64,000 nucleotides of DNA, taken from the NCBI GenBank assembly GCA_000004985.1, contig GG738901.1; one strand, given 5' to 3'. Origin of the DNA: Naegleria gruberi (taxonomy: Eukaryota). Positions 23,423 through 31,342 of this stretch are shown piece after piece; the stretch's first letter is position 1; each line of letters begins with the position of its first letter. Position numbers and translations under genes: made by a program. Below the pieces are notes generated by a model. That model ran no database searches. It was not told the origin of the DNA and saw only the letters and a list, made by a program, of their open reading frames with translations.

Positions 23423-26400
23423 ATGTCTTTCTTTGGATTTGGTAGAAGTAGTAGTAGCAGCAATGTTACATCTCCTTCTTCTTCTTCGGGACAATCTGGT
23501 GATTCATCCCAATTATCTTCTCCAACTTATGACACTGGTAGAAATATTGATGGTATGTAAATTGATGATCATCAATTCAAATAATATTTAAAATTAATTT
23601 AGATATTGTGAAAGGATTATTGATTGCTTTGGATGATAGTGATATTAACGTACACAAGAATATTCACCAATCTCTTCTAAAAATTGGTAATGAATGCGAA
23701 TTGCTCTTACTGAGTAAATCACTCTACTTTTTAAATAATACTTGCCCGAAATCAAACAAGAAACACAGAGTATTTGTTATGAATATTCTTACTGAACTTT
23801 TAAATAAGAAACCATCTAGCAATGATTATGCTGTTGTTCGTACTTCTCTCAGTTCTCAAATTGATACAACACAACAATTATTTAAACTTCCGGATGATCT
23901 TTCTCGTGCATTGATTAATATGGCTGTATTAGAAATGGTACAAGAAAAATCTGTGAATTCCGATTGGCAAGCCAGTGCTTGTAATTTATTAATTGCATTA
24001 TCTAGATTCTCACCAGATATGGTTTCTGGACAATTATTGGAAAGATTCCCTGTTAGTAGTACAAATCCACCACATTATTTTGTTATCAAAGCTTTGAGTG
24101 ACATTGCTTTTTATTATCCATTATTATTTATTAGTAATTTGAAGGAAGTACTTTCAAGAACTTTACCTTTATTGGCTATGATTAAACACGATAACTTGAG
24201 ATGGGTTTTTTGTGCAGCCCTTGGTAGATGGTCGGAAGCAGCTATTTATTGTTTGGAATTATCTGAAAAATCAACTCAACATTCAAATCCTATTGATAAG
24301 ACAACAATTTCACAATATCACTCTTCAGTATTAACTGCTATGAAACATATCTTGTTGGAATGGTTGAACTTGAGAGAACCTAAAATCAGACTTGCTGCTG
24401 CTCAATCAATTGGTTACATGTGTCATATTATTGAAACAGATCAACTCAATCAATTACTTCCAAAATTAATGCCAAACTATATTCAATCACTCAGAAAAGA
24501 AATCAAGGATGACCCATTGCCAGTTACAGTTGGTCTTCAATATATTGTCAAGGTTGTTGTAAGAGATTGTCCAACCTCTTTGAATGAACATTTACAAGCA
24601 ACTTTGGGAACTTTGTACTCTGTATTGCTCACAACAATTGCCAGAAAGGGTTCTTATAAGAATGGTCAAAGAAATATTGCTGAAACTTTGAAGACATTCC
24701 ACTATTTGACTAGAGGATTTACTGACCAAGTAGTTTCATTCCTCCAAGCTCAATTGGAACAACCAACTGGTACTACTATTACACGTGTTAGTGCTCTCAA
24801 AATTTTAAGATATTTAGTTGTAAATAATGATGAAGATTTGATTTCTTACAGAGATGTAATTGTCAGTGGTTTGATGAAAATTCTCAAAGACCCAAGTGGT
24901 AATATGATTGTTATTGCTGATGACTCAGAAGTTCACTACGAATTCAGTGTTCTCATCCATACCATGGCACAAAAATCTGGATATATGATTTCACAAGGTG
25001 GTACTGAATTGGTTCATGTCATTTTGAGAGGTTGCTCTATTTCAGAAAGAAAAATTGCCGATGACCTTAAAGCCAAAATACCACCTTCCTTGTTGAATGG
25101 AAATGATCAAGAAAAAGTTGCTCAATCAATGATTGCCAGATATGAAAAGGAAGATGCTAGTGTTTTCGTAGATACCACCATAATTTCTGCCCAACAAACT
25201 GCTGAAGATGAGGAATTAAGCAGTGAAGATTCCGAAGGTAGCAAAACAACCAATCCACAAGACTCATTGGATTCATCAACAAATGTTCCACTTGTTGTAA
25301 CTTGGTACCAAGTTAGAGAAGGATGTGATCGTGTTTTATTGAGTTTCACAACTAAACTTGGTGAAGAAATGGATAAGGTTTTGTGGCCATTCTTACTTGA
25401 ATCTTTTGTTATTCCAAGTTATGATATCGCCTTCCCAGTTTTGTGTAGAGCTATTGCCGATATCAGCAAACGTAAGAAGAACGATGATGATTTCATTATT
25501 GATTTCGATGCTCAAGTCAACATTCCAAAGCAAAACTTTATCTTTGCTCGTTTATTGTTGAAGCTTACCTCTCCTTTTGGAAGAAATCAACCTGCTGTTA
25601 ACATTCTTCGTGCTCTCTATTGTCTTTCACCAAATATTCACCCAGATGTTGTTCAATTGTGGGGTAAGAAATTACCAAATTTGAAGAAGTATATTGATAC
25701 ATGTGACTCACTTACTTCCTTCAACCAAGACGAATGGGATAATCAATTATTGAACCTTGTTCGTGACAGTATTGACAGCGTTCAAGATGATAGATGGGCT
25801 GTTGCTCTTGGTGAAGCTTTGCTTGATCATGCTGACATTTTCTATAAGAACAATAGATTGTTGAAAAAGGCCTTGTTATCAATTGTTGGTCTCATTATTC
25901 AAAAGAGTCAACTTAAGCAATTTATTCACTCTGCTGTTGAAAGATGCTTCAAGATTACTGATCACACCAGTGATGAAGAAAGATTGGGATGCGCTCGTGG
26001 TCTAGGTCAAGCTGCTGTTAATCATTGTGATAGTGTTTTAACACAATTGCAAAATGTTATGAAGGCTCCAGAAAAGAAAACTGGTTTCTTCGCCAGAAAT
26101 ACTGGTAAGGAAGTTGGTCCAGAAGAAAGAGCTACTGCTATTCTTTCATATGGTTATGTATCTATGCTCACTCCTTTGAATCTCATTACATCTCGTGTCG
26201 AAGTTCACGTTGTTAAAAACATGACTCCAATTTTGAAACCTCAACCACCTCAACCAATTCCATATGAATTGAAAGAAAATGGATTGAAGGCTATTGATTT
26301 GATTGGTAAATCAGTCCATCCAAGTAGATTGAGTGATTTTATTTTGAAATCCAGAGATGAACTTGTTAGACTTGTTATTCAAATTATGACTCCATCTGCT

Positions 26401-28974
26401 CAATTATTGCAACAAGTTAATACTGTCCCTCAATACTTGTCTATTAACAAGTTAAGAGCTTTGGGTCTTGATGCCATTTCTACTTTGATTAAATTGCCAC
26501 CAAAGATTGAAGTTGACGTACAAAACGAGGTTCTTAACACCGTTTTAGGATTAATCAAAATTAAAAGTGCTATCAAACCAACAGATGCAAAACAACCACT
26601 TGGTATTGAAGAACTTCAAACTTCTGATGATTCAATTTTGGAAGGCGTTAGTAATGTCTTATTCTCACTTCTCCATACTGATAATAGCCAAGGTACTCTT
26701 GATGATATTTTAAAGGCATTGGAAACTGATCACCTCAACTCTCAAAATTCTTTGGAAAGAGACAGATCTGCCAACATTTATGTTTCCCTTTTGAAAGATT
26801 TTGCCAAGCTTATTTCTGCATATGACTCAGAATCTCAATCAGCTAACGTATTTGGTACATCCATGATTAGTTTGGGCCGTATTATTGGTCAACTTATTCC
26901 TCGAGTCACTGAATCTACAATTGGTGTTAGAAAATCTGGTCTTGATGGAATTTATCTTGTTTTGAGAATTCAACACTTCTTGCAAAACATTAAATCCCAA
27001 GATGATGAAGACCTTCCAGAATATCTTCAACAAATTGGTCCACTCAGAAACCAACTTTTTGAAGCTAGTAACATTAAGGAATTATTTGAAGTTACCAAAG
27101 AACTTTCACAAATCCTCTGCGAAGCCATCAAGGACAAGTCTCACTTGATGAATCTTATCGATACTTTGATTGATACCTTGGTCGATCCTGAAGTTGATGG
27201 TGCCAATAGCTCATGTATTGTCTTGAGTGCTTTGATTAGACTTAGAGGTAAAGAACTCGAACAAGAAGCTGCTAACTATGTCAAGAAGATGATCAAGCTA
27301 ATTCCTCAATTCATTTCCAATCAAAGAGAACAAATTGTTAGTGGTTTGCTCCATGGTATTAGAGGTTTCACTAGACATTTCCCACTTTTGATTATGAACA
27401 CCTTGATTGCTTATCCAGTCCCTCATACCATTGAAGTTACCAAGAGCTTCCAAATTATCTCTACCGATCCAATGTTGAATCAACAATTGTTAGATCACTT
27501 ACTTGACATTATCAATAATGCTCAACTCTATGAAGAAAAGAGATCATCAGAAGTTGATATGGACTTGATTCCAACACACAATACAGTCTCCTGTACACAA
27601 GCCCTTTATGAAATCTTGGCTGTTGAAGACTTTGCCCAAATTGCCATGAAGAATTATGCCTCAATCATAATTACTGCACTCGTTAGAGTTGGTACTGCTA
27701 ACGAAATGACTGTAAATCCTCCAACTAAGTATGCTCAACAATGTATCATTAACTTCTACAAGCTCACACAAGAAACAATTCGTAATGCTAAATTGGAAGA
27801 ATTGGAAGAAACACACGATTCTAGCCATGAAGATCACAAACAAACCTTTGAAGAACGTAAGGAAGCCATTATTTCTAGTACTCCTCTCGAGTTTGAAGCT
27901 ACTATCTTGGAAGGTCTTCTCCAAAAGAAGATTTATGGTGACTCTGTCCAAGAAGTTTTGAGTAAGATTTGTAAAGCTTATCCACAACATGTTAGAGCCA
28001 TGTTTGATTTTGTAAAGCCATTCATTAGCAGAACCTTCATTGGTCAAAGAGTTATTGCTACTTGTATTATTTCTGTATTACTTAACTTTATCCAAAATGA
28101 TAGAGAATTAGTCCACAATTGCATCAATGCCTTACTCAGCAGAAGTGGTACTGATGAAGTTGTCGTTGTGAAATTGTATGCCTTGCGTGGTTTGTCTAGT
28201 TTGTCCATCCATCCAAAGGATATTCTTCATCAATATGTTACTCCTGTTATTGGTGCTCTTCTTTCCAATTTGGAAGATTTGAATCAAGCTGTTATTCTGG
28301 AAGCTATGACAAGTGTAAAGAATATTTTCAAGATTGCTGAAGACGCCTACATTTCACCACTTTTAATGAACTTGTGTGTTAGATTGAAGCCATCATTTGA
28401 AAAGAAAGATCCACTCATTAGAGAAGCATCAATCAAATTATTTGGTGCTTTGCATCGTTTCTGTGATGGTGTTATGAGAGATACCCTCATTTCAACAATT
28501 TTCAATAATTTGCCAATTTTGTTATGTCACGTTCAAGATCCTGAAGAAAATGTCAGTATTGCATGCAGACTTGCTTTAAGACAACTTGTTCCAACACTTA
28601 AGAGTGAAGCATTTACTGAAATTTTCCAAATTGATGCCTTTAAGGTTGAAGATACCACTGCTCCTCAAGCTGTACAACCATTGAAATTTGATGAATTTTC
28701 TGAAATTTTCGCCAAAACTTGGATTCAAGAGTTCCCAGACAGAATTAGTGATTTGGTCATGAATTTGGTTGTGTTCTATAAGAGTGAATGGTCAAATTGT
28801 TGCGCCTCAGCTTGTTTGATTCTTGGTTATTTGCTTGCTAATTTAAGTAAGGAGCAAAAGACAAGAGTCAATCTTAGACACACTACACAAGGCCTCACTG
28901 ACTTGTTAAAATCACCTTCTCCTCTCATTAGAGAAAAGGTTTCCAAGATGTTAGGTTTATTATTCGAAGCTTAA
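23423..28974 (+). CDS. Maestro-heat-like-repeat (MROH1/HEATR7A-like) protein, 2 exons
   Basis: Exon 1 (23423..23552) codes MSFFGFGRSSSSSNVTSPSSSSGQSGDSSQLSSPTYDTGRNID. A GTATGT donor follows. The acceptor TTTAG ends at about 23602. Exon 2 is a single ORF of about 1790 aa made of HEAT-type helical repeats throughout. Length and architecture resemble MROH1. Confidence 0.6.
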
Positions 28975-28991
28975 AATAAAAAAGTAAATAT

Positions 28992-30129
28992 TTATAAAAT
29001 TTCACATGATTTGAGCATGGAAAGAAGTGCAATGAAAGGATACCACATGTTATGATCTGGTTGTTGTTGAACTACCACTGTTGCTGCTCCCTCATTTGCT
29101 TCTTCTCCTTGTCCTTCATCAGAAGAAGATTCTGGACTAGTTGGTGTGGTGGAATTATTTGATGGTTGAGTTGTTTCTTCCTTAACTTCCTCTGCAACTA
29201 CTTCTTGAGTAACACTCTCCTCAGCATTTGGTGTAGAAGCAACACTGCTACTCTTACTACCTGTTGTGGCCACAGATGAAACTTCAACCACTTGTTTGAA
29301 TTTTGATTCAATACCAGTCATGATAACTTCCTCAATTCCTTCCCTAGTCAATGCACTACATTCTCTATAGGCATAAAATCCATTTTCCTTTGCAAACTCT
29401 TGAGCTTGTTCAAATGAAACTGGTTCTTCACCAATTTCCTTCAAATCATTTAAGGTTCTTTCATCCTGTCTCAAATCAGATTTTGTTCCAACGAGAATGC
29501 ATGGAACTTTTGGAGTAAAGGCCTTTCCAGTACCTGAAATTTCTCTCATCCAAAGTCTTTTCACACTTTTCAAACTTGATGGAGAAACTACTGAAAAACA
29601 AACAAAGAATAAATCAGTTTCTGGATAACTCAATAATCTCAAATTATCAAAATCTACATTAAATATGATCAATTCGTCCAAATAATAATATTCGAATCAA
29701 TGTAGAACACATTTTAAAAACTCACCTTCCTGCCCAGCTATTTTCCACAAACAACAAACAATACACAAACGAAAATGATGTTAACACATTGTAAATATCG
29801 TAAATAACTATTCGAATCTCTTACCTGTATCCCACAAATTCAAAATTACTTGCTCCTCCTGATAATTAACTTTTTGAATTCTATTATCAATTACAGTAGG
29901 TACGTGATCTTCATCAAATTCATTTTCTACAATTGATTCCGATTTTAATCTAAGTTTCGAATAAAATTCTTCTTCTTCTTACCTGTGAAAGAAATTAAAA
30001 GACAAGTTTTTCCTACGGCGCAATCACCTGCATAATAATATTATTTATAACTTTAATGTGAGAATGAAATGTAAACGCACCTACAAAAACAACCTTGTAT
30101 CTTCTGGTGTCAATTGTCGTTTCTGACAT
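28992..30129 (-). CDS. Atypical Rho-family small GTPase with a CaaX box, 5 exons
   Basis: After splicing by hand the protein reads [46 protein letters not shown]...[41 protein letters not shown]...CILVGTKSDLR...YRECSALT...SCEIL. Introns have GTGCGT, GTAAGA, GTAAGA and GTGAGT donors. It ends CEIL, a geranylgeranyl-type CaaX. The Gly at the RhoA G14-equivalent position is Cys. Confidence 0.75.
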
Positions 30130-30406
30130 TTTTTTATTTTGGTTTCCAAACATCAATTTGACAAATATGGAATGTTGACTCTACAATTTTTATGAAATAT
30201 ATTTTTCATCGAACTCTTTTTAATACAACATTAAATACTCTTTTACAATATTCTCTATTTAACCTAAATATATTTAAAAACGCAAATTTTTGTAATTTTG
30301 TAGAAACTTGAAAAAAAAATATTAAAAAAAAATACAACAAAACCATCAGAGAGAGGTTTTTAATTTTCTTCACAACACCACCACAACAAATCAACAACAA
30401 CAAAAA

Positions 30407-31342
30407 ATGAGTAATGAAAACTCTTGGAAATCCGTTCAAAATAAGCCAAGAAGCGGAAGAAAGCAACAGCAACAACAATCTCCTACCACTACCCCTGCAA
30501 CAACCACCACTACTACTACCAATTCTAATAGTAACACATCCGGTGCTTCCATCTCCTCCAATAATATCAATATTTCATCTCCAACTAATCCTACTACTTC
30601 CACTAGTTTAAATCATTCACAAACAATAACAAATTCACCATCTGTAGCCTTGGGTGGAAATCAACAAAATAATGCTACAACATCAAATACTTCATCAGCA
30701 AAGAAAAAGACAAATAATGTAGAAACAAATGAAAAGGTTCATCCTCTTGGTGATACTTTCACATTTTCATATTTCAGAAAGGAAAAGGGTATTGATTATG
30801 AAGATTGTATGAAAAATGTTGGTGATTTTTCAACTGTAGAGCAATTCTGGGCACTTTACACTCACATGAAGAGACCGTATGAACTTAAAGTTTCTATGGA
30901 TTATCATCTTTTTAAACAAGGCATTAAACCAATGTGGGAAGATGATAAAAACAAAACTGGTGGAAGATTAATGTTAAGATGTAAGAGTGGCTACTCTGCT
31001 CGTATTTGGGAGGATTTACTTTTGGCATTCATTGGACAACAATTCAAGAATACTAATGATGTTAATGGAGTTGTGATTTCCATCAGAGAAAACCATGACA
31101 TTATTTCTATCTGGAATGCAGATGGAGAAAAGGAAGAAATTCAAGAAGCATTAAAACAAGACGCTATGAAGTTATTGAATTTACCTTCACAAACTAAATT
31201 GGAATACAAACCACATCAAGAATCAATCAATAATCACACTAAGATGTTAGAAATGATAGGAAATAATGCCACAAGTCAAGGTTTTGATGAAGATGCAGTG
31301 ACTGAATTAGATCAAGAACTTGAAGTCTATTTGAAACGATAA
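30407..31342 (+). CDS. Translation initiation factor eIF4E family (cap-binding)
   Basis: N/T/S-rich N-terminus, then HPLGDTFTFSYFRK...FWALYTHMKRPYEL...DYHLFKQGIKPMWEDDKNKTGGRLMLR...ARIWEDLLLAFIGQQF, which includes the conserved Trp-rich cap-binding motifs. Single exon. Confidence 0.85.
   Translation: MSNENSWKSVQNKPRSGRKQQQQQSPTTTPATTTTTTTNSNSNTSGASISSNNINISSPTNPTTSTSLNHSQTITNSPSVALGGNQQNNATTSNTSSAKKKTNNVETNEKVHPLGDTFTFSYFRKEKGIDYEDCMKNVGDFSTVEQFWALYTHMKRPYELKVSMDYHLFKQGIKPMWEDDKNKTGGRLMLRCKSGYSARIWEDLLLAFIGQQFKNTNDVNGVVISIRENHDIISIWNADGEKEEIQEALKQDAMKLLNLPSQTKLEYKPHQESINNHTKMLEMIGNNATSQGFDEDAVTELDQELEVYLKR

What the first reader, a model, noticed from the sequence alone, without database searches (positions are those of the whole stretch)
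28992..30129. Rho-family GTPase with Cys at the Gly14(RhoA)/Gly12(Ras)-equivalent position and a ~90-aa S/T/E-rich insert before the CaaX box
The hand-spliced product reads [16 protein letters not shown], where canonical Rho/Rac/Cdc42 have GDGAVGKT or GDGACGKT. Substitutions at this glycine impair GTP hydrolysis in Ras/Rho and are the hallmark of constitutively GTP-bound atypical Rhos (Rnd, RhoH). The switch II DTAGQE is intact. A long acidic S/T-rich segment precedes a geranylgeranyl CaaX (CEIL). The product may therefore be a GTPase-deficient Rho regulated mainly by expression or localisation.
Basis: partly seen in the sequence, partly recalled or inferred. Interest (0 to 1): 0.5.

Follow-up and report, generated by a model that had tools for sequence, protein, structure and literature searches.

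The report
Naegleria Rho GTPase with P-loop cysteine
This is a real, conserved Rho-family switch protein of the amoeba Naegleria gruberi. It naturally carries the same glycine-to-cysteine change as the cancer mutant KRAS G12C. The gene was already catalogued in 2021, and changes at this position are common among Naegleria's many Rho genes, so the finding is only modestly novel.

Summary
A five-exon minus-strand gene (30129..28992) in Naegleria gruberi encodes a 289-aa Rho-family GTPase. Its P-loop reads GDCAVGKT, and Cys19 aligns with RhoA Gly14 / Ras Gly12. An 84-aa acidic, S/T/E-rich linker follows the G domain, and the protein ends in CEIL.

The Cys codon lies inside exon 2, so no exon 1/2 junction can restore Gly. 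Cys is conserved in N. fowleri, N. lovaniensis and a second N. gruberi-like strain (TGC versus TGT). The Willaertia ortholog has Gly. The G domain is under strong purifying selection (dN/dS about 0.08).

The gene is missing from the reference gene models. However, Herman et al. 2021 (Table S8) list an identical manual model, apparently the ortholog of N. fowleri "Rac40". They do not comment on the Cys.

The "GTPase-deficient, Rnd/RhoH-like" reading is only partly supported. The Gln61 and Ala59 equivalents are intact, and KRAS G12C keeps near-normal intrinsic hydrolysis while resisting GAPs. The likeliest role is a GAP-resistant, slowly self-inactivating Rho.

A conserved hydrophobic segment replaces the polybasic region before the CaaX box. 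Arg66, needed for RhoGDI binding, is Asn. Both suggest a fixed membrane anchor. All biochemistry is inferred.

The parts
30081..30129 (-). Exon 1: start ATG at 30129 ([16 protein letters not shown] + first base of Gly17). An alternative in-frame ATG lies at 30153 (MFGNQNKK-).
   Evidence: Herman et al. Table S8 uses the upstream ATG. That ATG is out of frame in N. lovaniensis, so 30129 is the likelier start.
29983..30027 (-). Exon 2: P-loop (G)[14 protein letters not shown]. The Cys19 codon TGC is at 30022-30020. Cys25 corresponds to the redox-sensitive Cys18 of Rac1.
   Evidence: The Cys codon is TGT in N. lovaniensis and N. fowleri and GGT in Willaertia.
29825..29926 (-). Exon 3: switch I / effector loop ([12 protein letters not shown]), beta2-beta3 and the start of switch II (WDT). 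Thr42 (Ras Thr35) is kept. The Tyr32, Phe37 and Tyr40 equivalents are His, Ile and Arg.
29726..29737 (-). Exon 4: 12-nt microexon CTGGGCAGGAAG, encoding (A)GQE of DTAGQE and including the catalytic Gln68.
   Evidence: It is flanked by ..atag| and |gtgagt. The same microexon occurs in N. lovaniensis, N. fowleri and the second N. gruberi-like strain. It is absent in Willaertia.
29304..29653 (-). Exon 5, G-domain part: the rest of switch II (DFDNLRLL, with Asn73 at the Arg66 position), a 4-aa insertion SGTG, TKSD (G4), the Rho insert (DLRQDERTLNDLKE), CSAL (G5) and helix alpha5.
   Evidence: An AF2 model of the ortholog has pLDDT >90 and a helix at the Rho-insert position. Foldseek TM-scores (normalised to the target) are 0.93-0.95 to RhoA, Rac1 and Cdc42.
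29052..29303 (-). Exon 5, linker: 84-aa acidic, S/T/E/V-rich, low-complexity tether (aa 187-270).
   Evidence: Composition. It is 25% identical to N. lovaniensis with dN/dS about 0.7. pLDDT is below 50 in the ortholog model. Only about 35 aa align to it in Willaertia.
29007..29051 (-). Exon 5, hydrophobic pre-CaaX segment NMWYPFIALLSMLKS, which takes the place of the usual polybasic region.
   Evidence: The hydrophobic character is conserved in all five orthologs. It is the most hydrophobic pre-CaaX segment among 199 Rho-like proteins, whose median net charge there is +5. The model shows a short helix there.
28992..29006 (-). CaaX box CEIL (28995-29006) plus the TAA stop (28992-28994).
   Evidence: C-x-I-L is conserved in all orthologs.

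Best explanation
This is a functional, lineage-specific Rho/Rac paralog of Naegleria. It is the N. gruberi ortholog of the protein Herman et al. 2021 list as N. fowleri 'Rac40'. The invariant P-loop glycine became cysteine after the split from Willaertia, and the cysteine has been kept by selection since.

Proposed working (inferred):
- The G domain binds GTP and Mg normally, because G1-G5, Thr35 and Gln61 are all present.
- The Cys side chain occupies the space needed by the arginine finger of RhoGAPs, so GAP-stimulated hydrolysis is lost or strongly reduced.
- Intrinsic hydrolysis persists, as in KRAS G12C. The protein would act as a slow, self-timed switch that stays GTP-bound longer than ordinary Rho proteins, rather than a dead GTPase.
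- It is tethered to a membrane by a geranylgeranylated CaaL box reinforced by a 12-14-residue hydrophobic segment instead of a polybasic patch.
- It is held away from the bilayer by an ~85-aa acidic disordered linker.
- It probably escapes RhoGDI extraction, because Arg66 is Asn and the extra hydrophobic anchor is present. Amount and location would then matter more than GAP or GDI cycling.
- Divergent switch I residues (His32, Ile37, Arg40) imply its own effector set.

Shown here: gene structure, family membership, position and conservation of the Cys, purifying selection, and tail and linker properties. Inferred: every biochemical consequence.
For: Gene and family:
- Spliced CDS with canonical splice sites.
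- Pfam Ras 9e-46.
- RhoA/Rac1 best PDB hits, with Cys19 aligned on RhoA residue 14.
- Ortholog model superposes on RhoA, Rac1 and Cdc42 at 1.3-2 A, TM 0.93-0.95.

Conservation:
- GDCAVGKT in N. lovaniensis, N. fowleri and a second N. gruberi-like strain; GDGAVGKT in Willaertia.
- The Cys codon differs synonymously (TGC versus TGT) while dS is about 1.4.
- G-domain dN/dS is about 0.08.
- Synteny with the HEAT/Maestro gene is kept.
- An independent identical manual model exists in Herman et al. Table S8.

Catalytic residues: A66, Q68 and T42 are intact.

G12C behaviour: KRAS G12C has high intrinsic GTPase but is GAP-insensitive (PMC8767686).

Tail: the pre-CaaX segment is the most hydrophobic of 199 Rho-like proteins and is conserved in all orthologs.

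RhoGDI: Arg66 is Asn in the whole subfamily, against Arg in 107 of 111 relatives. Cdc42 R66E cannot bind RhoGDI (PMC5359428).
Against: - No biochemical, expression or localisation data exist for this protein or its orthologs. The gene ID g3434 appears only in the catalogue table.
- The G12C kinetics come from KRAS, not from a Rho protein. Rho proteins and their GAPs may respond differently.
- His at the Tyr32 position could itself alter hydrolysis.
- Arg-to-Asn is not the tested Arg-to-Glu change, and I could not establish that Naegleria has a RhoGDI.
- The hydrophobic segment is too short for a transmembrane helix, and its helix is predicted at low confidence (pLDDT about 55).
- No transcript evidence for N. 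gruberi was found.
- Non-Gly residues at this position are frequent in Naegleria's expanded Rho family, so the change may be tolerated drift in a redundant family, although its conservation argues otherwise.
Confidence: 0.5

Rival explanations
1. One reading: a truly GTPase-deficient, constitutively GTP-bound atypical Rho of the Rnd/RhoH type, controlled only by expression, turnover or localisation.
For: A non-Gly residue at Gly12 is said to render Rho GTPases enzymatically inactive, and RhoH and RhoE carry Ser there (PMC2565660). The Cys is conserved. Tyr32-to-His in switch I might further weaken hydrolysis.
Against: RhoH also lacks Gln61, and Rnd proteins lack both the Ala59 and Gln61 equivalents. 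Here both are kept under strong purifying selection. KRAS G12C specifically retains near wild-type intrinsic hydrolysis. The protein is not an ortholog of Rnd or RhoH; it belongs to a heterolobosean-specific clade.
Confidence: 0.2
2. It is a conventionally cycling Rho. In this protein and GAP context the Cys is tolerated, for example by co-evolved Naegleria GAPs or by GAPs that do not use a classical arginine finger. It would then be regulated by GEFs and GAPs like any other Rac.
For: All other catalytic and nucleotide-binding motifs are canonical. Naegleria has a very large, diversified Rho family: about 50 genes in N. fowleri and more than 80 in N. gruberi. Many members carry non-Gly residues at this site, which suggests the lineage copes with such variants.
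Against: It is established for Ras, Rho, Rac and Cdc42 that a side chain at position 12 clashes with the GAP arginine finger and the catalytic Gln (G12V and G14V mutants). No such tolerant RhoGAP is known to me (own knowledge).
Confidence: 0.2
3. It is a redox- or thiol-regulated switch. The P-loop Cys19, next to the phosphates and paired with Cys25 of the known GXXXXGK(S/T)C redox motif, is reversibly oxidised or glutathionylated, and this modulates nucleotide binding or signalling.
For: In KRAS G12C the Cys12 thiol has a depressed pKa (about 7.6) and is readily oxidised in vitro and in cells. Its sulfinate form resembles G12D (PMC9352912). Cys18 of Rac1 / Cys20 of RhoA is a known redox-sensitive residue (PMC8393718) and is conserved here as Cys25. 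The Cys is selectively retained rather than replaced by another small residue.
Against: This is argument by analogy only. There are no data on thiol reactivity here. The conservation of Cys is equally explained by the GAP-resistance hypothesis. The distance between Cys19 and Cys25 was not measured.
Confidence: 0.08
4. It is a decaying or non-functional paralog in a redundant gene family, left unannotated because it is not a real gene.
For: The gene is absent from the N. gruberi reference gene models. Herman et al. list several Rho pseudogenes.
Against: The reading frame and all eight splice sites are intact in four genomes. G-domain dN/dS is about 0.08 at dS about 1.4. Synteny is conserved. 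Herman et al. do not flag it as a pseudogene. The 12-nt microexon plausibly explains why gene finders missed it.
Confidence: 0.02

Closest known systems
N. fowleri 'Rac40' (NfowleriV212_g3434.t1; XP_044566959.1 / XP_044567829.1), N. lovaniensis C9374_007887 (XP_044546001.1), and the manual N. gruberi model on ACER01000552.1 in Herman et al. 2021, Table S8
   Same: The manual N. gruberi model is the same gene. Its sequence is identical apart from 8 extra N-terminal residues from an upstream ATG. The orthologs are 60-62% identical overall and 82% identical over the G domain (N. lovaniensis). They share GDCAVGKT, the exon structure, the hydrophobic tail + CEIL, and synteny.
   Different: Nothing substantive. 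The assignment to the name 'Rac40' rests on list order in the table. The paper lists the gene only as 'Rho family GTPase' and says nothing about the P-loop Cys or the tail.
Oncogenic KRAS G12C
   Same: The same Gly-to-Cys substitution at the structurally equivalent P-loop position, with Gln61 intact. It is the only case where the kinetics of exactly this change are known: high intrinsic hydrolysis, GAP resistance and a reactive low-pKa thiol.
   Different: It belongs to a different family (Ras, not Rho). It is a somatic disease mutation rather than a fixed, selected wild-type state. The switch II pocket, GAPs and effectors differ, so the kinetics may not transfer.
Mammalian atypical GTPase-deficient Rho proteins (RhoH, Rnd1-3/RhoE)
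   Same: They are Rho family members with a non-Gly residue (Ser) at the Gly12 position and are regulated by means other than GAP cycling.
   Different: They also lose Gln61 (RhoH: Asn), and Rnd proteins lose both the Ala59 and Gln61 equivalents; here both are kept. Rnd proteins are farnesylated (CaaM), whereas this protein has CaaL. There is no orthology: this is a heterolobosean-specific clade.
Dictyostelium RacD
   Same: [quoted passage not shown]
   Different: RacD is reported to lack the CAAX motif. A P-loop substitution or a hydrophobic tail is not reported for it in that review.
Plant type-II ROPs (GC-CG box) - recalled from my own knowledge, not checked here
   Same: Rho-family proteins whose C-terminal membrane anchor includes a short stretch of aliphatic residues rather than relying only on CaaX plus a polybasic patch.
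   Different: They use S-acylated cysteines and keep a polybasic region. They have no CaaL box and a canonical P-loop.

Membership tests
Rho family of Ras-superfamily small GTPases | Ras-like G domain with G1-G5 nucleotide-binding motifs | tested here: met
   GDCAVGKT (G1, with Cys in place of the second Gly), VPT42V (G2), DTAGQE (G3), TKSD (G4), CSAL (G5). Pfam Ras 9e-46.
Rho family of Ras-superfamily small GTPases | Rho-specific insert helix (~13 aa) between beta5 and alpha4 | tested here: met
   DLRQDERTLNDLKEIGEEPV aligns without gaps to the RhoA insert [20 protein letters not shown]. KRAS has a gap there. The AF2 model of the ortholog has helix 131-139 at this position.
Rho family of Ras-superfamily small GTPases | Closest sequence and structure relatives are Rho/Rac/Cdc42 | tested here: met
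   PDB phmmer top hits are RhoA, RhoC, TC10 and Rac1 at about 1e-49. Foldseek top 50 hits are all Rho, Rac or Cdc42, with TM (normalised to the target) 0.9-0.95 apart from three longer fusion-protein chains.
Rho family of Ras-superfamily small GTPases | C-terminal CaaX prenylation box with an adjacent polybasic or palmitoylated second signal (typical, not universal) | tested here: inconclusive
   The CaaX box CEIL is present. The polybasic region is absent: the 14 residues before the Cys have net charge +1, against a median of +5 in 199 relatives, and are hydrophobic instead. N. fowleri and N. lovaniensis have an extra Cys two residues upstream; N. gruberi does not. Prenylation itself is not testable here.
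GTPase-deficient atypical Rho proteins (Rnd / RhoH type) | Substitution of the P-loop Gly12(Ras)/Gly14(RhoA) | tested here: met
   Cys19 aligns to RhoA residue 14. It is conserved in three Naegleria species.
GTPase-deficient atypical Rho proteins (Rnd / RhoH type) | Substitution of catalytic Gln61(Ras)/Gln63(RhoA), and in Rnd also of Ala59/Ala61 | tested here: not met
   DTAGQE is intact: Ala66 and Gln68 are present here and in all orthologs. RhoH has Asn, and Rnd proteins change both residues.
GTPase-deficient atypical Rho proteins (Rnd / RhoH type) | No detectable GTP hydrolysis; constitutively GTP-bound | not testable with these tools
   This needs recombinant protein assays. The KRAS G12C analogy argues for retained intrinsic hydrolysis.
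GTPase-deficient atypical Rho proteins (Rnd / RhoH type) | Orthology to metazoan Rnd or RhoH | tested here: not met
   A profile search of 1.84 billion representatives finds subfamily members only from Naegleria, Willaertia and one metagenomic heterolobosean-like contig. After these the scores drop to generic Rho. The best PDB hits are RhoA and Rac1, not Rnd or RhoH.
Naegleria 'Rac40' orthogroup (Herman et al. 2021, Table S8) | Sequence identity with the published manual N. gruberi model, and one-to-one orthologs in N. fowleri and N. lovaniensis in conserved synteny | tested here: met
   The published model MFGNQNKKMSETT...CEIL is identical from MSETT onward. The HEAT/Maestro gene lies convergently downstream in all three species. 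The name Rac40 is inferred from list order.

The most novel reading that the evidence does not exclude
Naegleria has fixed a natural 'G12C' Rho. Its P-loop thiol would be the regulatory element: either a GAP-independent timer or a redox- or glutathione-gated switch. The protein would sit permanently on a membrane through a hydrophobic-helix-plus-geranylgeranyl anchor that bypasses RhoGDI. Because the Cys is conserved in the lethal pathogen N. fowleri, it would also offer a pathogen-specific nucleophile next to the nucleotide pocket for covalent GDP-mimetic inhibitors, if the protein is important for motility or trogocytosis.
Probability: 0.12. Interest if true: 0.6.

Novelty: new member of a known kind. 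Interest (0 to 1): 0.3.

Why it matters
If the inference holds, this would be a wild-type, evolutionarily maintained example of the exact substitution known from KRAS G12C. It sits in a Rho protein whose other catalytic residues are intact. That makes it a natural experiment on what Gly12-to-Cys alone does to a small GTPase (GAP resistance, a reactive thiol), and on how a cell uses such a switch. The accompanying tail (hydrophobic segment + CaaL, acidic linker, Arg66-to-Asn) hints at a RhoGDI-independent mode of membrane anchoring. Practically, the gene is missing from the N. gruberi reference gene models, so expression studies based on those models would not report it, and its N. fowleri ortholog carries the same cysteine. 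Against this, atypical Rho proteins with P-loop substitutions are a known class, such substitutions are common in Naegleria's 50-80-member Rho family, and the gene is already catalogued. The likely impact is modest.

Tried and rejected
1. Alternative splicing that restores Gly: rejected. TGC lies 5 nt inside exon 2, and the same arrangement (TGT) holds in N. lovaniensis and N. fowleri. The only alternative acceptor inside exon 2 (..CCGTAG|GAAAA) would delete DCAVG and destroy the P-loop.

2. Pseudogene or chance ORF: rejected (dN/dS 0.08, conserved splice sites and synteny).

3. Transcript evidence: exact look-ups of the 289-, 297- and 298-aa products and of the last-exon ORF found no transcript-derived or annotated N. 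gruberi protein. The only hits were genomic or metagenomic contigs of a near-identical strain.

I modelled the N. lovaniensis ortholog instead.

5. Wider distribution: the profile search and the metagenome contig scan (hits only 23-39% identical) gave no further orthologs. The G-to-C change can therefore only be dated to 'after the Naegleria/Willaertia split'. The metagenomic relative P0011/L008 lacks the upstream exon, so its residue 12 is unknown.

6. Expression data: the N. fowleri gene ID appears only in the catalogue table, not in any other held supplementary file.

7. Presence of RhoGDI in Naegleria: not resolved from the held supplements.

8. The second unannotated Rho gene on ACER01000552.1 (the 'Rac10' ortholog) is not in this window.

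9. Calling the C-terminal hydrophobic stretch a transmembrane tail anchor: rejected. It has only 11-14 apolar residues, contains Pro, and is followed by K/S and the CaaX box.
Full report
**What the window is**

The ORF next to the finding (30407-31342, +) is identical to XP_002671936.1 / NAEGRDRAFT_72930 of Naegleria gruberi. The window is therefore nuclear DNA of this heterolobosean amoeboflagellate. It is 33.6% GC.

**Checking the observation**

The gene lies on the minus strand. Reading the reverse complement and splicing at canonical GT..AG sites gives five exons:
- 30129-30081
- 30027-29983
- 29926-29825
- 29737-29726
- 29653-28992

The introns are 53, 56, 87 and 72 nt long and 25-28% GC, against 36% GC for the CDS. 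The product is 289 aa. The fourth exon is a 12-nt microexon encoding the AGQE part of switch II.

Cys19 is codon TGC at 30022-30020, five bases inside exon 2. The protein matches Pfam Ras at 9e-46. Its best solved relatives are RhoA, RhoC, TC10 and Rac1 at about 1e-49. The printed alignments place Cys19 on RhoA residue 14. One aligned chain, 1a2b, is the G14V mutant and reads GDVACGKT at that spot.

DTAGQE, TKSD and CSAL are present, and the Rho insert aligns without gaps.

After the G domain comes an 84-aa stretch (aa 187-270). It is 44% Ser+Thr+Glu, with 15 acidic and 4 basic residues. The protein ends in CEIL.

**Is the gene model right, and is the Cys real?**

Four lines of evidence agree.

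1. The N. lovaniensis ortholog (XP_044546001.1, 291 aa, annotated independently) has the same five-exon structure, including the microexon, and reads GDCAVGKT.
2. N. fowleri (XP_044566959.1 / XP_044567829.1, 287 aa) also reads GDCAVGKT. A Logan contig shows the same exons.
3. A metagenome-derived contig from a near-identical N. gruberi-like strain keeps the TGC codon and all splice sites, despite differences in the introns.
4. Herman et al. 2021 (BMC Biol, PMC8296547), Additional file 10 / Table S8, give a manual N. gruberi model on contig ACER01000552.1. It carries a double asterisk, which I read as meaning 'not in the reference gene models', consistent with the negative look-ups. It is identical to my splice. 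The only difference is that it starts at an upstream in-frame ATG (window 30153, MFGNQNKK-).

By its position in their lists, this is the ortholog of N. fowleri 'Rac40, Rho family GTPase'. The upstream ATG is out of frame in N. lovaniensis, so 30129 is the likelier start.

No junction can restore Gly, because the codon is internal to exon 2. I found no transcript-derived copy of the protein in the collections, so direct RNA evidence for N. gruberi is still missing.

**Evolution**

The Willaertia magna ortholog (KAL9646217.1) reads GDGAVGKT with codon GGT. The Gly-to-Cys change is therefore a single G-to-T transversion that arose in the Naegleria lineage.

| Region (N. gruberi vs N. lovaniensis) | Amino-acid identity | dN | dS | dN/dS |
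|---|---|---|---|---|
| G domain | 82.5% | 0.11 | 1.4 | about 0.08 |
| Linker | 25% | not reported | not reported | about 0.7 |

The Cys codon differs synonymously (TGC versus TGT). The Cys is thus maintained by selection in a functional gene.

Among 110 nearest Rho relatives with this column aligned, 108 have Gly. Only this protein and its N. lovaniensis ortholog have Cys. Across all 266 fetched proteins, about 11% of P-loops are non-Gly at this position, and Cys occurs otherwise only once.

A profile search of 1.84 billion representatives found no members of this subfamily outside Naegleria, Willaertia and one metagenomic contig. A metagenome scan added nothing.

**Context that lowers the novelty**

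Herman et al. count nearly 50 Rho genes in N. fowleri and more than 80 in N. gruberi. In their table several other N. gruberi 'Rac' or RhoBTB models carry non-Gly residues at the same position:

| P-loop | Residue at position 12 |
|---|---|
| GDTVSGKT | Thr |
| GPHAIGKT | His |
| GQAGSGKN | Ala |
| GSSEVGKT | Ser |
| GDQAVGKT | Gln |
| GDIGCGKT | Ile |
| GDEGVGKQ | Glu |

The gene itself is catalogued and P-loop variants are common in this genome. Herman et al. make no comment on the Cys: a search of the paper's supplementary files for 'P-loop' and 'atypical' found nothing.

1. *A hydrophobic pre-CaaX segment.* Every ortholog has a 12-14-residue hydrophobic stretch directly before the CaaX box:
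   - N. gruberi: WYPFIALLSML-KS-CEIL
   - N. lovaniensis: LILYPWLILASLM-KCK-CEIL
   - Willaertia: LVGMFALFFGMI-KS-CNIL
   - Metagenomic relative: LFMIPFMFVMSVL-GK-CEIL

   Most Rho proteins have a polybasic patch here. Among 199 Rho-like proteins ending in CaaX, these orthologs have the most hydrophobic 14 residues before the Cys, with net charge +1 to +2 against a median of +5.

2. *A disordered linker.* The AlphaFold model of the N. lovaniensis ortholog has a confident G domain (pLDDT >90), a linker with pLDDT below 50, and a short helix in the hydrophobic tail. The G domain superposes on RhoA, Rac1 and Cdc42 at about 1.5 A.

3. *Shared subfamily substitutions*, in Rac1 numbering:
   - Switch I: Tyr32 to His, Phe37 to Ile/Val, Tyr40 to Arg/Lys.
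   - Switch II: Tyr64 to Phe, Arg66 to Asn, Pro69 to Leu.
   - A 3-4-aa insertion (SGTG in N. gruberi).

   Cdc42 R66E cannot bind RhoGDI (PMC5359428).

**Mechanism**

A side chain at position 12 hinders the GAP arginine finger. This is established for Ras and Rho proteins, and reviews state that replacing this Gly inactivates Rho GTPases (PMC2565660).

The known GTPase-dead atypical Rhos also lack Gln61 (RhoH: Asn). Rnd proteins lack both the Ala59 and Gln61 equivalents. Here both residues are conserved. For exactly Gly-to-Cys, the KRAS data class G12C with wild type as having high intrinsic GTPase activity while being refractory to GAPs (PMC8767686).

My best reading is therefore a GAP-resistant but self-hydrolysing, slow-timer Rho. 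It would be firmly anchored by geranylgeranyl plus a hydrophobic segment, probably not shuttled by RhoGDI, and would have its own effectors. All of this is inference.

The rivals are:
- a truly dead GTPase;
- a normally cycling Rho with tolerant GAPs;
- a redox-gated switch. In KRAS G12C the Cys12 thiol has pKa about 7.6 and is readily oxidised (PMC9352912). The neighbouring Cys25 is the known redox-sensitive Cys18/20 of Rac and Rho (PMC8393718);
- a pseudogene, which is essentially excluded.

**Comparison with known systems**

This is a member of the Rho family: all defining features tested were met, except that the usual polybasic second signal is replaced. It is not a member of the Rnd/RhoH group, because Gln61 and Ala59 are intact, there is no orthology, and the box is CaaL rather than CaaM. 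It may work partly like them.

A serine-rich C-terminal insertion has a precedent in Dictyostelium RacD (PMC8305917).

**Verdict**

The gene is already catalogued, though unannotated in the reference gene models, and belongs to a known kind: atypical Rho proteins with a P-loop substitution. The specific natural G12C with an otherwise intact catalytic site, and the hydrophobic pre-CaaX anchor, appear undescribed in what I searched. Interest is about 0.3.

Noticed in passing
window 29726-29737 (-); L001:6497-6508; L003 ~621-632: A 12-nt microexon encodes (A)GQE of switch II, including the catalytic Gln. It is conserved in three Naegleria species and absent in Willaertia, where DTAGQE is contiguous and the next intron sits 1 nt away, in phase 0. 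This probably explains why the gene was missed by the N. gruberi gene finders.
   Followed up: partly
window 28974-28992: The stop codons of the convergent HEAT/Maestro-repeat ORF (ends 28974, +) and the Rho gene (ends 28992, -) are only 17 nt apart. The 3' UTRs must therefore overlap or be extremely short. The gap is about 86-88 nt in N. fowleri and N. lovaniensis.
   Followed up: no
window 30153 (-): An in-frame upstream ATG (MFGNQNKK-) lies 24 nt before the ATG at 30129. Herman et al. use it as the start, but the equivalent upstream ATG in N. lovaniensis is out of frame. The true start is unresolved.
   Followed up: partly
window 28992-30129 (-): The gene is absent from the N. gruberi reference gene models. 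It is marked '**' on ACER01000552.1 in Herman et al. Table S8, and exact look-ups were negative. A second unannotated Rho gene (the 'Rac10' ortholog) is listed on the same contig but lies outside this window.
   Followed up: yes
window 30407-31342 (+): An eIF4E-family protein (Pfam IF4E 8.7e-54, residues 113-267) has a ~110-aa Thr/Asn/Ser/Gln-rich N-terminal extension. It is transcribed divergently from the Rho gene, with a ~280-bp shared upstream region.
   Followed up: no
window 23608-28974 (+): A 1788-aa uninterrupted ORF of a Maestro/MROH2B-like HEAT-repeat protein (Pfam HEAT_Maestro_2, 1.4e-71). The listed ORF begins with GTG, so the true start and any earlier exons lie upstream. Its synteny with the Rho gene is conserved across Naegleria.
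   Followed up: no
proteins P0015, P0016, P0021, P0023, P0029, P0047, P0059: A group of metagenomic or EukProt Rho proteins shares the unusual switch I of this subfamily (TENxFPEEHVPTVFDNRS, with His32 and Arg40). They keep Gly12, Arg66 and a polybasic tail. They may represent a wider, unnamed Rho subgroup from which the heterolobosean clade derives.
   Followed up: no
N. fowleri XP_044566959.1 and XP_044567829.1: The identical ortholog protein is recorded under two locus tags (FDP41_011094 and FDP41_011651) on two contigs of the N. fowleri assembly. This is either a recent duplication or an assembly redundancy.
   Followed up: no
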